From Octopus vulgaris (lineage: Eukaryota), in NCBI GenBank assembly GCA_951406725.2, contig OX597817.1, positions 136,710,001-136,774,000 on the forward strand: a stretch of DNA of 64,000 nucleotides, read 5' to 3'. The notes below the pieces were generated by a model. The model was not told the origin of the DNA. It did not search any database and saw only the letters and a list, made by a program, of their open reading frames with translations. The translations under genes and the position numbers were made by a program. Below are positions 14,222 through 41,612 of the stretch, piece by piece (positions within the stretch are counted from its first letter, which is position 1; each line of letters begins with the position of its first letter).

Positions 14222-14420
14222 TTATTTGTTTCAGTCATTTGACTGTGGCCATGCTGGAGTACAATTTAGTCGAACAATTCAACCCCAGGACTTATTCTTT
14301 GTAAGCTTGGTACTTATTCTATCAGTCTCTTTTGCTGCACTGCTAAGTTATGAGGATTTAACTACACCGACATTAGTTGTCAAGTGACGGTGGCAGGGAA
14401 AAATAAAGACACACACACAC
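14222..14420 (-). mobile_element. SINE family A, 3' half
   Basis: gtttcagtcatttgactgtggccatgctggag...ccccaggacttattctttgtaagc. Confidence 0.85.
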
Positions 14421-14434
14421 ACATATATATATAT

Positions 14435-16241
14435 GAGAGGTTTCTTTCGGTCCGTCAGGCCCCTCTTGTTGCTTCTATATGTGTTGACTCTCAAGCCACT
14501 ACTGCAGAAGCTGGTGACTCTGAGGGGCATCCCGATAGAATTGGGATGCGGGACGAGCATATCTGCATACGCAGACGACATCACTGTCATAGTGTCTCGC
14601 CAGAAGCACATCGATCTGGTCAGCAAAACACTGAAAGACCACGAAGCGGTAACAGAAGCGAAAATCAACCGGGAGAAATTGGTGGGCTTGCGGCTCGGCA
14701 CCTGGAAAAGCAAGCCCATTCTGTCGTGGGACGCTGGACCGAAGGTCTGGTTGAGTTGCTCAGGGTCTGGTTTTGTCTGGACCTCCAAATGGAGAAGAAC
14801 TAGGACAAGATAATGAGGAGAGTGGTCACTCTCGCCAGGCAATGGGCCGAGAGGAAGCTGTCCCTAAAAGATCGGGTGGAGGTGGTGAACACGTACATCG
14901 CGTCCGTCATCTACTACCCCCTAGCCGTTGTGCCTTGTCCCGACACTACCATCACCAAACTAGAATGCATTCTCTGCCGCTTCTTGTGGAAAGGATGCAT
15001 TCCGATGGTCAGGTAATCCATTTGCTGTTAACACCCATTAAAAGGAGGGCTGGGCATGCCGTGGTTGATGATTTGCAGATATGCGCTGAGACTACGACAT
15101 CTCCGGCTCTACATAGACGACGGTGAACAGGTCTGGTCGCCGTTTGTAAGGCACGCTTTCCCGCAGCTTGTCTCCATGACTGAACTGCAGTCGTGGATCA
15201 AAAACAGAGGCCGAGGAAGGGCGAATGGCACCGTGAGTGTCACGTTGCTCTCAAGCAACTATGCCATCCCAGGTTGGCCTTGAGCGACTTCAACACAACC
15301 AAAGCACTCGATAGGGGATTAGTGGAGGGAAGGTATGATGATCTCAGAGCGAACCTGGGCGTTGACAAGGAATACCTGACCCACCTGTTCAAGACAACTT
15401 TCAGGCCGGGACCTATGGACAACTTCCAGAGATTCCTGGCCTGGCAGTGCTATCGAGAAGCGCTACCCATTCAGGATAAGCTCTACAGACACGGCTCGAG
15501 AAACATGGGGCCAACCTGCCTGAGATGTGGTCAGAGCGACAAAACTGTTCTGCATGTACTCTTGCAGTGTCCAATCATTTTCAACCTGTGGGCTTATGTC
15601 GAATGACTGCTGTCATGTGTGGGACGAGTCGGTTTATCAGCTGAGTCTAACGTCAATATCGTCACGCCTCCTTCATTCAAACGGGAAGGAAGTGCTATTT
15701 TCATCATACTTGTGGCTATGGCAAAAGAACGTATCTGGTGGACGCGCCTGAAAGGATTAGAGACAAACACTTTCCTCTCTGGTCAATCTCTCAACAACTT
15801 CTTCAAGTATCACTTGAAAAGGAAAGTGAGAGAGGCAAGTTTTGTCTAGCGAATGTTTTAAAAAAAGATGTGCGAATGTAGCAAGGATGGCATGTATGAA
15901 TGATGAAGCCACCTTGTGCATAATCCTATGAACCTGGAAAAATTTAAAACAGAGTTATTTGCTTGCAAATAAGTGTGTTAACATGTGACATTATTGACCG
16001 AGGTTACTGTGGTCTTTTCCGTAGGCTTTTCTTTCCACGGATAAATCTTATCTGTTTCCCCCTTTACACTTTACATCATAACGTTTCTGTGATACACGAT
16101 CCCTATTGATTGTTTTTTTTTTTACAATCCCTTTTGATCGAAAACCTAACCCCATTTTTTTTCTTTTTTTTCTCCCCAGAAAGAAAACCTATTTTGTAAT
16201 TTGTCCCCTCTGTGTTCAGCCCTGTGTGGCTAATAAAGAAA
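14435..16241 (+). mobile_element. 5'-truncated Tx1/L1-clade LINE (pseudogenised ORF2: RT and zf-RVT) with 3'UTR
   Basis: RSVR..LLYVLTLKPLL, SAYADDITV, KINREK, RFLWKG, GGLGMP, LAWQCYREALP...CLRCGQSDKTVLHVLLQC; stops and frameshifts; AATAAA at 16232; flanked by microsatellites. Confidence 0.92.
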
Positions 16242-18380: not shown

Positions 18381-19498
18381 CAGGGGTTGAACAAAATAAT
18401 GGAAACATCTTAAAATTTCAAACAAATTTATCTTAACATGGGGGAAGGACCGCCTTTGGCAGTAATTACAGCTTGAATTCTATGCACTTACACAAAGTTT
18501 GAATTGTTTCCAAAGGAATTTTTGTCCATTCTTCAGCTAAAACAATCTCCAGTTCTTGTAGTGATGATGGTGGAGGATATTGACTCCTTACATGTTTTTC
18601 TAAAATGCACCATAAATGTTCGATAACATTGAGATCTGGGGCCTGTGGTGGTCAGATAAGATTTTCAACTTCACTAGAATGTTCCTTGTGCCATTCAGTA
18701 ACAAATTTAGCTTTGTGAATTGGTGCATTATCATCCTGAAATATTGCGTTTCCCTCCAGAAACAGTTCTGCAATCACAGGATGAATTTGATGAGATAGAA
18801 TATTTAAATAGTCTTGACTATTAATCTTTCCATGAAGGGAAACCATTGGGCCAGCAGATTTCCAAGCCCCCACCCGATCATCACAGATCATCAGCCTGGG
18901 TCAGATGCTTCTTTTGGCTGTCTCTACATATATACTCAGCCAGTGGTCGGAAATAAGTTAAAGGATAACTCATCTGAGAAAATAACATTCTTCCACTGCT
19001 CTAGGGACTAATTCTGTAGGTTTTCACTCCACTCTAAATGCTTTGCACCGTTTGTTTTTGAAAGTAGTGGTTTTCTGATTGCAGCCATCCCAAGAAATCC
19101 AGCTTTGTACAGTCCCTATCTGAAAATTTTGGTTTTCTTCCGGTGTTTTCTTTCGAGGAGGTTTTTCATTCTTTCTCAAAGGCTTTCATTACTTTCGAGA
19201 CAGTACTTTTTGATACACCAAACATTTCGGCTGTTTTCGTTATGCTAGCACCTGCCATATGAGCACCAACAATTTGACCTCTTTGAAAGTCTGATAAATC
19301 TGTCATTTTAATGAATTTTAATTACCTTCTTCTGATGATATCTGAAAAGAAACAGCAATTTTTGCAAAACATATTAAACAACACTAACAATAAATCAAAA
19401 AGCATAAAAATAAACAAGCTTTTCATGGTTTTATAGATATTTCAAAATTATGTTGCTATGATGCTGCTAGGTGTTTCCATTATTTTGTCCAACCCCTG
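18381..19498 (-). mobile_element. Tc1 (DDE) DNA transposon, internally decayed
   Basis: 30-bp TIRs caggggttg(a/g)acaaaataatggaaaca(t/c)ct, flanked by TA. Confidence 0.95.
18433..19306 (-). pseudogene. Tc1 transposase pseudogene
   Basis: MTDLSDFQRGQIVGAHMAGAS (HTH)...GRKPK...IFQDDNAPIH...PPQAPDLNVIEHLW...AVITAKGG; stops and deletions. Confidence 0.92.
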
Positions 19499-32258: not shown

Positions 32259-32530
32259 ACAATAAGAAAATTGTGGGGATCAATAGATGGTTTATCAACT
32301 TTTAGACATCATATTAACTTATTTATTTATTTACTAAATTGACAATTACAATAATATGGTTAAATATCTTTTTACTTTCACCCATTTAGCACACTAGGTA
32401 ATGTAATTGCAATGCAATAGAAAACACTTGTGTATTAATAATTGGGTATTCTACCAGCAGTATATTGGATAGATATTATACCTTAGTTGGTTGGATTCAC
32501 AACCTCTAACTTTCTTGGAGGATATATCAT
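32258..32530. mobile_element. TA-embedded module, paralog of 35419-35640
   Basis: Shared ggggatcaa...tcaactt..tagacat and tattctaccagcagtatattggatagata...ttagttggttggattcacaacctctaact. Confidence 0.7.
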
Positions 32531-32813
32531 TTTATATCATCACAAGTATATATTTTTTTTTTTTTTATCCCTATATATTATTAATTTTATATTTATAGAC
32601 ATAAGTTATGTGAGAAAATAGTTTTCGTAAATTTCAATTTTTATTCGTATTTTTTATTTTTATCTTTATTTTTTATTTTATTTTTTGTAATTTTTTATTT
32701 GAATTAAATTATGGTTTGTACAGTAGGGTCCGGCGAACTTATTTACACATACTTATTTGGTTAAAAAATTAAAATATAGTTTTTAGTATCAAACTATGAT
32801 AAAGTGATGTGGA

Positions 32814-32908
32814 GGCCTGATGATTGGGGTTATATTTTAAGAAAGGTTCCAGCAAAACATGCCGTGGTTAAGGAACTGGGAAATTAACCTCAAGAAACGC
32901 GTGTAGCC
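32814..32908 (+). ncRNA. Type-I hammerhead ribozyme, complete catalytic core
   Basis: ggc-CTGATGA(32817-23)-ttggggtta...taacctcaa-GAAA(32894-97)-C gcgt G-TA^gcc; predicted cut after 32905. Confidence 0.75.
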
Positions 32909-33014
32909 AAGATATAAGTAGTAAGTATTAAATTAAATTAAAATTCTTTTATATGGTGGGATGAAGGGTCCTACTATCTCTAAATGAATATATATATTTT
33001 CATTTAGAGATCTC

Positions 33015-33109
33015 GGCTACACGTGTTTCTTGAGGTTCATTTCCCGGTTCCTTAACCACGCTGTGTTTTGCTGGTACCTTTCTTAAAATATAATCCCAAT
33101 CATCAGGCC
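33015..33109 (-). ncRNA. Type-I hammerhead ribozyme, complete core, inverted copy
   Basis: Minus strand reads ggc-CTGATGA-ttgggatt...aacctcaa-GAAA-C acgt G-TA^gcc; stem III ACACGTGT is a perfect palindrome. Confidence 0.72.
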
Positions 33110-33544
33110 TCTACATATATATTGTTTGTTTGTTATAATAAAACAATTTTACATTAAATTCTTTCATAAGAATAGTGTTGATTGTGACTTTGAAGTGTTG
33201 GCCAGCTATGCCATCATCATCTATAAAAGTTTCTTATAGATGAACATTATGGGTAAATATATATATATAAGAGGTTGTATTATGAAGGACCTGCAGCTGT
33301 AAAAACCCTGCTAAAACAGCCCCTGTCAAACTGTCCAGCCCTTGCCAGCATAGAAAATGGACACTAGACGATGATGATATATACTCACACATATATTTAT
33401 AAGCACAGGCATATACATTTTATAGATATAACATTTATCTATTCTATACACCCTTCCACACACATAGAATCAAAGTGATATGTGTCTACCTGCCCTTATC
33501 CTGTCATCTTTCAATATCGTATCACCTTTGATATTAATAATTTC

Positions 33545-39349: not shown

Positions 39350-39670
39350 TGCCTGCTGTTTTCTATGCTGGCATGGGTTGGACGAATCGACCGAGGACTG
39401 GCAAGCCAGTAAGCTGCACCAGGCTCCAATCTGATCTAACAAGGTTTCTACAGCTGGATGCCCTTCCAAATGCCAACCACTCTGAGAGTGTAGAGGGTGC
39501 CTTTTATGTGCCACTGGCATGAGAGCACATTTGGTTGGTGCTTTTTACATGTCACTGGCACAGGAGCCAGTCAAGCGGCACTGACATCGGCCATGACTAC
39601 AATTTTGATTTTATTTGACTCAATAGGTCTTCTCAAGCACAGCATATCACCTGATGATTCAAGGCTACTT
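39350..39670 (-). mobile_element. Family B element
   Basis: ctatgctggcatgggttggacg...tttctacagctggatgcccttcc. Confidence 0.85.
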
Positions 39671-41612
39671 TTGAACGGGTTGGTTATGCGATTCGGTTGA
39701 GACAGTGAAATAAATGGAGAAATAATCCAGTTACTGATTGAAGTTGACCATTTAATGTTTGAAATGCTTTCAAGTTTCTCTTGATTAGTCTGTTTAAAAG
39801 TACCAAAATGTAACAAAAACATCACAGCTTTCATATCTGATGCTGTTATAAATACTTAGATATTTAGATGTGATTTAATAATATTTTAATTAATAATGAG
39901 CTCTTTAATATATAAACAATGCCTTCATATTTTTCTTGCTTTATTCTATTAGTCTAAAGAAACAGTTAAAAACTTAGTGTGTGTGCATTTAGAAAATATA
40001 TATATATATATATATATATGCATATTTGCGTGTGAGTATACATGTAATTCTCGCTCTCTCTGTCTGTCTGTCTCTCTCTCTGGTTTATTTTTATTGTTCT
40101 TTATGTTGCAAAAATATACTCTTGTAACATTTTTGTAGCAGCTACAAGTAATGTCTTCAGTTTTACTCATCTCCATAAAGATGAGATATGGCTTGTCAAG
40201 CTATCATGAAAGCAAGCCATCCAAGAGAGCGGCAACTCCAAAATAAAATCAATATACACCAAGGTGTATCCAGCACAATCACCTTCATCCTTGTAGCGGA
40301 GGGGGTTGGGGTGAGGTGCGAGGGAAGAGAGATTGATTCAGTGTTTGGTTCCTATCAACAAACTGGAAATAATCCAGTAAAGTTTTATGAGTAACCTTGC
40401 TTAAACGGGAGCCGGAGCAAATGGGGGGGAACTTTATGGTTTTACTATTAAGTAAAGAGACATAATTACATGTACCTCGATGAATCTCCCTGACCGATTC
40501 CCAGAATTTTAACATTGGAATGTTTCTTCTTAAAATCTTTCATTACCTTATTTTTCCCCTCCAGCTCCCAACTCTCTCAGTTCTTCACTTTTACATGTCT
40601 GCTCAATGACATAACCATTCAATTTTATATTTAAGCTATTAAGTTATTAGTTACACATCTTCAAATTGTTAAATTCTCTAAATGGAATTTACTTCAACTC
40701 GTTACTGTCTGGAATTTCATGTCTAACTTGACAAAACATTTTTCTAGCTAAGCTTCATTCGAGATGTAGGTCTTTACTTCTATACATTTACAAATTCTTT
40801 ACTTTTTCTCTATGATTGAACATTATATTAGCATTGTGCTGCTACTAGTGATAGAATTTGATGACTTTAAACACCAATTATCCTGGACAAAATTATTGAA
40901 TAGTCAAGTGCAATACAAAATTTGAGCTTACTGGGTATATTTTTATATTTATCTAATGACAGATGAATGTATTGGTCTGGGTTGAAGTTCATAGTTAGGT
41001 CTCTATTCTAGCTCTTTGTGTGTGTGTGTGTGTTAGCTGAGGTTCAAGGACTGCATAAAAACATTGTTGAAGAGTCTAACATCTTGGAAAGGACTGGGAA
41101 GAAATCGGTTCTGTCTGGGTAAGATGGTGGAAGGTAGTATATGGCAGAAGTGAAAACTTTGAAATAGCTTGAAGAAATGATGAGAGGCTGAATAGGGATG
41201 CTAGAAAGGGTGTGGAAGTAATATTTCTGGGAAATATAGGATCACAGGAGTAGGCTGACATGATGAAAGTGAGGGAGCCTGCTTCAACAGAGAAGGACTG
41301 AAATGACAATGTACAGAGAGTTGCAACATACAGAGCATAGCAACATGCCATGAATGTGGTATGGCTTGCCTATCATGTGGGTGGGGTTGAAACATGACAT
41401 GAAAGTGCATGATGACAGACAAGTGGATCATGTTATTTGTGATCAATTGATGTTTGTAACATCTGTCCGGAAGAGTATGGATCATTGGCTGACTTGAAAT
41501 GCCACAACCATGCTGCTCACATATGAGGCCAAGTCCGAGGCACTTTAGGTGATGGTGATACTCAAGAACAAGGAAGTGGCCTTCATATATATATATATAT
41601 AGAATAAGTCAC

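What the first reader, a model, noticed from the sequence alone, without database searches (positions are those of the whole stretch)
32807..33116. Convergent pair of intact hammerheads with an unusually long stem II
Seen: 107-bp inverted arms, each with a complete core (CTGATGA, GAAAC, GTA). Stem II is a domain of about 70 nt closed by ttggggtta/taacctcaa. Stem III reads ACGCGTGT and ACACGTGT, both derivable from the palindrome ACGCGCGT by CpG decay. Inference: a transcript from either strand contains one ribozyme followed by its antisense arm, so cleavage would compete with formation of a long duplex. This could act as a kinetic switch in host pre-mRNA. Stem I is only 3 bp and the 10.1-11.1 pair is U-A, so activity is uncertain.
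Basis: partly seen in the sequence, partly recalled or inferred. Interest (0 to 1): 0.75.

Follow-up and report, generated by a model that had tools for sequence, protein, structure and literature searches.

The report
Retrotransposon tails with long-armed hammerheads
Two broken-off tail ends of a known kind of jumping gene (a Penelope-like retroelement) meet tail to tail in a TA repeat; each carries a predicted self-cutting RNA motif with an unusually long side arm, but a transcript across them would likely zip into a double strand rather than work as a host switch.

Summary
The arms are real (97/107 identical, both cores complete). They are 3' ends of a Hydra-clade Penelope-like retrotransposon: longer copies carry RT and GIY-YIG sequence upstream on the same strand, with DKT, RxKWK and CxCx5C motifs. 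A 470-bp truncated copy and a 107-bp internally deleted copy meet tail to tail at (TA)n, the clade's target. Inverted pairs are routine here (16 head-to-head, 3 tail-to-tail of 20 pairs). The hammerhead is the dimer-type PLE form; the 'U-A 10.1-11.1' and the short stem I are clade traits. No host switch is supported: no exon found, the foldback far outweighs the ribozyme fold, a strand holds only one ribozyme, and a second allele likely lacks the right arm. What is unusual belongs to the family: a 70-nt stem II kept by compensatory changes; 3,605 long-armed motifs genome-wide; none among 26 published Hydra rows. In a sister family, up to 18 insertions begin exactly at the predicted cut, which hints at cleavage in vivo. 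This scan noted long-armed Hydra hammerheads before, in this genome and others. Cleavage is untested.

The parts
32527..32997 (+). 5'-truncated 3' UTR/pLTR copy of a Hydra-clade Penelope-like element (left unit), ending without the family's ~65-nt tail
   Evidence: 88.8% over 489 nt to the long copy L014; tail present in other copies
32814..32908 (+). Left type I hammerhead: stem I GGC/GCC, core 32817-32823 and 32894-32896, stem III 32897-32904, predicted cut after A32905
32824..32893 (+). 70-nt stem II rod: basal helix, A-rich internal loop, 6-bp middle helix, A-rich bulge, tip helix with a 3-nt loop
   Evidence: 10 of 23 pairs with two-sided changes across related families; RNAalifold recovers the three helices
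32976..33011 (.). 36-nt palindrome formed by the two element 3' ends meeting at a shared TATATATAT (32989-32997)
32998..33011 (-). 3' end of the right unit, joined to its hammerhead across a 64-nt deletion (equivalent to 32914-32977) at an AT microhomology
   Evidence: junction pattern found once in the genome, here
33010..33116 (-). Right unit: short, 5'-truncated inverted copy with a complete hammerhead core (33015-33109; predicted cut after A33018) and a weakened stem II
33117..33122 (.). TA remnant at the right unit's 5' junction; another allele has at least 15 nt of (TA)n and a G here
   Evidence: loose end of a locus-specific 1,682-nt contig in run X3

Best explanation
The feature is two truncated 3' ends of one Hydra-clade Penelope-like retrotransposon family joined tail to tail at a (TA)n target, and it is likely an inert relic at this locus. 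Shown: family membership, RT and endonuclease sequence upstream in longer copies, TA junctions, and a stem II kept by compensatory changes. Inferred: in the parent element the hammerhead cut the element's own RNA as a dimer, two sense copies pairing through the self-complementary ACACGUGU, probably helped by the element's protein; the long stem II is a rigid extension that must stay paired to hold the core shut. Inferred for this locus: the right unit most likely came from a second insertion into the TA tract left at the end of the first (about 55:45 against one complex event). A read-through transcript would carry one sense ribozyme and, 105 nt after its cut site, its antisense copy; it would fold into a ~107-bp duplex before a slow, partner-dependent ribozyme could cut, leaving at most a double-stranded substrate for editing or small-RNA processing.
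For: Dispersed family: 766 candidates, 40 scored, all matching. RT and EN pieces lie upstream of the arm on the same strand in L035, L036, L037, L083 and L084. Hydra motifs: DKT, RLKWK, YRDD in L083; CKH in L035, L037 and L083; CxCx5C and CxxC in L022; these match the clade definition in PMC8557442 section 11. Copies end in (TA)n. Of 20 neighbouring pairs, 16 are head-to-head, 3 tail-to-tail, 1 tandem. Opposite-strand dual hammerheads 100-700 bp apart are already reported (PMC4209133). Stem I pairs in sequence-unrelated sister families (GGC/GCC, AGAC/GTCT, CCAC/GTGG, GTGG/CTAC) and loop III is a 4-nt palindrome in 11 of 12 clusters. Foldback -200.5 against -72.4 kcal/mol. A monomeric minimal PLE hammerhead was inactive and dimers weak in vitro (PMC4209133); one was active only with the element's protein (PMC11167929).
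Against: Cleavage and transcription were not tested. Pfam support for the proteins is weak: GIY-YIG E=0.011, below cut-off, and no RT hit for the 852-aa ORF; the clade call rests on motifs, not on a tree with reference PLEs. Two insertions against one is unresolved: the arms share 0 non-majority states where 8 other pairs share 3-11, but both arms lie near the majority (6 and 4 changes), other pairs differ as much (1-16 of ~107), and L033 shows a tail-to-tail unit beside a head-to-head pair with shared variants. The X3 contig stops inside (TA)n, so a longer TA tract with the arm still present is not excluded.
Confidence: 0.88

Rival explanations
1. Host-exapted kinetic switch: cleavage competes with duplex formation in a host pre-mRNA.
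For: Both cores are complete, and only 37 of 59 family arms keep a complete core. Tail-to-tail geometry is the rarer kind (3 of 20 pairs; exact end-to-end pattern at 2 loci).
Against: At 63% intact per arm, two intact cores are unremarkable. Stem II of the right arm is damaged. No host exon in 150 of 344 filtered ORFs; the 5 Pfam hits are transposon domains plus one weak stray. One sense ribozyme per strand, of a dimer-dependent type. A likely empty allele exists.
Confidence: 0.03
2. Same element, but both units came from one complex insertion with template switching; any allele lacking the arm lost it later by slippage between TA tracts.
For: The arms differ by 10/107, like head-to-head pairs (1-16). 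L033 has a tail-to-tail third unit sharing variants with its neighbours. The right arm has no near-identical sibling (closest 5 changes), so it does not look young.
Against: No shared non-majority states (0 of 6 and 4). The right unit has TA on both sides. A contig from organism C also stops matching at 33118.
Confidence: 0.4
3. A MITE or foldback DNA transposon whose terminal inverted repeats mimic a hammerhead by chance.
For: Short inverted arms flanked by TA.
Against: Homology continues about 280 nt beyond the left arm and on into RT/EN sequence in other copies. The two-arm unit is not repeated: its junction is unique. The long-armed pattern has 3,605 hits against 1 for the reversed control.
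Confidence: 0.01

Closest known systems
Hydra-clade Penelope-like elements and their hammerheads (Craig et al. 2021, PMC8557442; passages, section 11 and supplementary Files S1 part and S2 read)
   Same: C-terminal GIY-YIG; DKT, R..WK, CxCx5C, CxxC and CxH motifs; (TA)n targets; inverted truncated copies; a tail on one end only; type I hammerhead near the 3' end with an extra nucleotide on each side of the core followed by U-A and G-C (e.g. ctgatgat tgcc..ggca tgaa).
   Different: All 26 Hydra rows in File S2 have stem II of at most 7 bp with loops of at most 10 nt; here the domain is 70 nt with three helices. The 3' UTR is long (about 0.9-1.3 kb to the hammerhead). Tail-to-tail geometry is not the one drawn as typical.
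Minimal dimer-type PLE hammerheads (Cervera and de la Pena 2014, PMC4209133; parts 1-2 of 4 and passages read)
   Same: Short helix I, palindromic helix III, extra nucleotide after A9, dual motifs on opposite strands 100-700 bp apart, mostly solo truncated copies.
   Different: Their consensus has G10.1-C11.1 and a helix II of 7-8 bp at most; here U-A follows an unconstrained position and helix II is a multi-segment rod.
PLE-X1 hammerheads of Selaginella (File S2 of PMC8557442)
   Same: PLE hammerheads with a long insert in stem II (9 bp plus 35 nt in PLE-X1_sMoe), marked there as deviating.
   Different: Plant, endonuclease-less Chlamys-type elements with unrelated sequence; no covariation was reported in the rows I read.
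Metazoan non-LTR retrozymes (bioRxiv 10.64898/2026.07.22.740005, part 1 of 5 read)
   Same: Type I hammerhead, derived from PLE pLTRs.
   Different: Retrozymes are tandem, non-coding units; this is an inverted pair of truncated ends of a coding element.

Membership tests
Hydra-clade PLE | RT followed by C-terminal GIY-YIG on the hammerhead strand | tested here: met
   tblastn pieces spanning aa 105-847 of an 852-aa sister ORF lie upstream of the arm in L035; GIY-YIG Pfam E=0.011, below cut-off
Hydra-clade PLE | DKG changed to DKT; RWK motif | tested here: met
   QSDKT and RLKWK in L083, which carries a 94% partial arm match
Hydra-clade PLE | CxCx5C linker; CxxC and CxH near the EN end; no CCHH | tested here: met
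   CNCMDKNHC and CLLC in L022; CKH in L035, L037, L083; no Cys inside the GIY-YIG core on reading the translation
Hydra-clade PLE | Insertion into (TA)n | tested here: met
   3' flanks of the 39 copies listed are mostly TA runs, directly or after the tail
Hydra-clade PLE | RT phylogeny with reference PLE clades | not tested
   The only tree built was of 14 endonuclease rows from this genome
Type I hammerhead ribozyme | Core CUGANGA, GAAA, NUH closed by stems I-III | tested here: met
   stem I pairs in several unrelated sister families
Type I hammerhead ribozyme | Canonical G10.1-C11.1 pair | tested here: not met
   First and last stem II positions are U/A, U/U, A/U or A/A across families; the next pairs U-A and G-C are kept (T 48/51, G 50/51, C 49/51, A 51/51 in a BLAST-derived set). 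Published Hydra rows share this
Type I hammerhead ribozyme | Site-specific self-cleavage | not testable with these tools
   Indirect only: junctions at the predicted cut in a sister family and one in this family
Dimer-type minimal hammerhead | Short palindromic stem III able to pair between two copies | tested here: met
   8-bp self-duplexes of -9.5 and -10.3 kcal/mol
Non-LTR retrozyme | Tandem non-coding units each with a hammerhead | tested here: not met
   1 tandem pair among 20; coding sequence upstream
MITE | Repeated unit bounded by its inverted repeats | tested here: not met
   Junction unique in the genome

The most novel reading that the evidence does not exclude
Hydra-clade retrotransposons of this genome use a long-armed hammerhead subtype that really cuts in vivo: the covarying 55-83-nt stem II, lengthened at least twice, is a docking site through which the element's protein switches on a dimer-type ribozyme, and insertions that begin exactly at the cut (including palindromes whose two arms both start there) are fossils of reverse transcription running off cleaved RNA.
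Probability: 0.3. Interest if true: 0.62.

Novelty: new variant of a known kind. Interest (0 to 1): 0.36.

Why it matters
The locus itself is ordinary transposon debris. The family trait matters in two ways. Thousands of hammerheads with a 46-76-nt stem II would escape the short-stem descriptors used in published PLE searches and Rfam (no hit here), so counts of animal hammerheads may be low. And whether PLE hammerheads cut in living cells is open: PMC8557442 calls their function unclear, and PMC11167929 found no RNA reads ending at the cut. A genome-wide excess of insertions starting at the cut site would be a cheap, direct record of cleavage.

Tried and rejected
Rfam: no match at gathering in the window and no hammerhead family at E up to 10. 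The repeat finder was swamped by microsatellites and did not list the arms among its 25 longest pairs. Neptune clade: first guess from memory, dropped when DKT and CxCx5C matched the Hydra definition. SECIS inside stem II: considered from recall, no SECIS-like motif seen by eye, not tested further. A separate deleted mini-element family for the right unit: junction found once. Ancestral ACGCGCGT: none in 51 arms. Host gene: Pfam on 150 of 344 filtered ORFs gave only LINE RT, zf-RVT, Tc1 DDE and HTH hits and one weak stray; short exons would be missed and neighbouring DNA was not examined. No RNA holder listed. Laying contigs found no joint that skips the right unit. Cut-site junctions in this family: 1 match against 66 uncut, too few alone. 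Lunse et al. 2017 on PLE hammerhead variants was not held; it and the unread supplements of PMC4209133 may list long stem II forms.

Full report
Observation. The two arms lie at 32807-32913 (+) and 33010-33116 (-) and differ at 10 of 107 positions; the local score is 167 against at most 27 in 200 shuffles. Each has CTGATGA, a 70-nt spacer, GAAAC, a 4-nt loop, GTA and a 3-bp stem I; the predicted cuts follow A32905 and A33018. A second, 36-nt palindrome at 32976-33011 lies between them. Rfam finds nothing.

It is a dispersed repeat. A search of the 2.8-Gb own genome gave 766 candidates; the 40 scored all matched. The left arm is part of a copy running 32527-32997. Longer copies continue upstream into a GIY-YIG-type frame and reverse-transcriptase sequence on the same strand. 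The motifs DKT, RLKWK, YRDD, CxCx5C, CxxC and CxH and TA targets match the definition of the Hydra clade of Penelope-like elements (PMC8557442, passages and section 11). Pfam support is weak (GIY-YIG E=0.011; no RT hit), and I built no tree with reference clades. The host looks like a cephalopod from recalled repeat content; that is an inference from no call.

Anatomy of the locus. The left unit is 5'-truncated and ends in TATATATAT (32989-32997) without the ~65-nt tail seen in other copies. The right unit starts in a TA remnant at 33117, covers the hammerhead, skips 64 nt at an AT microhomology and ends with the element's last bases at the same TA tract. That deletion junction occurs once in the genome; the exact end-to-end palindrome occurs at 2 loci. 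Among 20 neighbouring pairs in the loci I hold, 16 are head-to-head, 3 tail-to-tail and 1 tandem. In the first 100 listed hits of each of two larger pattern searches, 8 and 6 close pairs were head-to-head and none convergent. Inverted truncated copies are a described PLE trait (PMC8557442), as are opposite-strand hammerheads 100-700 bp apart (PMC4209133).

One event or two. The arms share 0 non-majority states, where 8 other within-locus pairs share 3-11; but both arms lie near the majority and other pairs differ as much, 1-16 changes. In run X3 a locus-specific 1,682-nt contig continues left of 33118 into (TA)n and a G, not into the arm; X1 and X2 carry the arm junction, X2 has a second contig that begins exactly at 33118, and a contig of organism C also stops matching there. 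This suggests an allele without the right unit, but the contig ends inside the microsatellite, so a longer TA tract is not excluded. I put two insertions at about 55:45.

The hammerhead is the clade's own. The first and last positions of stem II vary as U/A, U/U, A/U and A/A between families, and U-A then G-C follow (kept in 48-51 of 51 BLAST-collected arms; my pattern-based sets require these letters and so do not count). Published Hydra rows show the same base, such as ctgatgat tgcc..ggca tgaa (File S2). Stem III is a palindrome, ACACGTGT in most copies; nothing points to ACGCGCGT. Stem I pairs in unrelated sister families and loop III is palindromic in 11 of 12 clusters; the twelfth reads GATT, one change from GATC or AATT.

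The long stem II is real structure. On 26 arms chosen from this family and its relatives, 90.6% of cells pair; 10 of 23 pairs show two-sided changes, 4 of 6 in the middle helix; the covariation score is 0.266 against 0.138 shuffled and at most 0.080 when slid. Cells count sequences, not events, most changes separate two or three lineages, and I drew the structure from these sequences; RNAalifold independently gave the same three helices. A pattern for 46-76-nt stem II hit 3,605 places against 1 for the reversed control. On an endonuclease tree of 14 rows, 69-83-nt forms make one clade (100/100); a 68-nt and a 36-nt form of unrelated sequence sit among 16-19-nt forms in the other. So the arm grew at least twice or shrank repeatedly, and near-intact 840-862-aa ORFs occur in the short-armed group: a long arm is not essential. 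None of 26 Hydra rows in File S2 exceeds 7 bp plus a 10-nt loop; two Selaginella PLE-X rows have long inserts. Searches (listings only, apart from the papers named) showed no description of this form; Lunse et al. 2017 could not be read.

Does it cut? Following a lead from note e1-8662772, I counted copies whose upstream three bases all differ from the consensus. In a sister family with a 59-nt stem II there were 24 such matches at the predicted cut against 2,113 uncut. One is an intact ribozyme with an insertion, and duplicates reduce the rest to at most 18 events, some ambiguous through microhomology or slippage; at 3 loci both arms of a head-to-head pair start at the cut. Controls gave 4 at +3, 11 at -3 and 4 at -7. 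Eighteen against the pooled 19 gives p=0.0016, but against -3 alone p=0.13. The patterns differ in stringency, the controls were not inspected for duplicates, and a nearby GATATC palindrome may favour the site. In the window's family there is 1 such junction against 66 uncut. This is suggestive, not proof.

The switch idea. Either strand holds one sense ribozyme. This type was inactive as a monomer and weak as a dimer in vitro (PMC4209133), and needed the element's protein in another case (PMC11167929, passages). The antisense arm begins 105 nt after the cut, a few seconds of transcription at recalled polymerase II rates, and the foldback is about 128 kcal/mol more stable than the ribozyme fold. 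The right arm's stem II is damaged. No host exon was found in 150 of 344 filtered ORFs. If transcribed, the likely product is a duplex open to editing or small-RNA processing (inference).

Verdict. Interest 0.36.

Noticed in passing
window 32275-32520: A different, very high-copy repeat abuts the left unit's 5' junction; its other copies run from 32519-32520 into (TA)n, so the left unit sits in that repeat's TA end.
   Followed up: no
L150/L151, L155/L156, L157-L160 near 1500: Head-to-head pairs of a sister family in which both arms begin exactly at the predicted hammerhead cut, two as perfect palindromes and one with a 13-nt element-derived filler.
   Followed up: partly
L129 1525-1545: Head-to-head pair folded back exactly at the stem III palindrome ACACGTGT, which suggests the palindrome also primes template switches.
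   Followed up: no
L068-L071: Near-intact 840-862-aa Hydra-type ORFs with an asparagine-rich linker, 97% alike; L068 and L069 have short-armed hammerheads upstream. A young family in this genome.
   Followed up: partly
L040, L043, L049-L051, L063, L077 against L066, L067, L076: Long stem II goes with a long distance from ORF end to hammerhead (857-1,259 nt, about 2 kb in L077); short stem II with about 200-230 nt.
   Followed up: no
L016, L018, L019, L021, L027, L030: In head-to-head pairs only one arm carries the ~65-nt tail; both the tail end and the tail-less end finish in an ATATAT-like stretch of the element that could pair with a TA target.
   Followed up: partly
window 14388-15603 (+) and 18469-19321 (-): LINE remnant (RVT_1, zf-RVT) and Tc1-like transposase remnant (DDE_3, HTH).
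   Followed up: no
window 39651-39740 (+): A CTGATGA...GAAAT motif without the family's stem base; probably chance.
   Followed up: no
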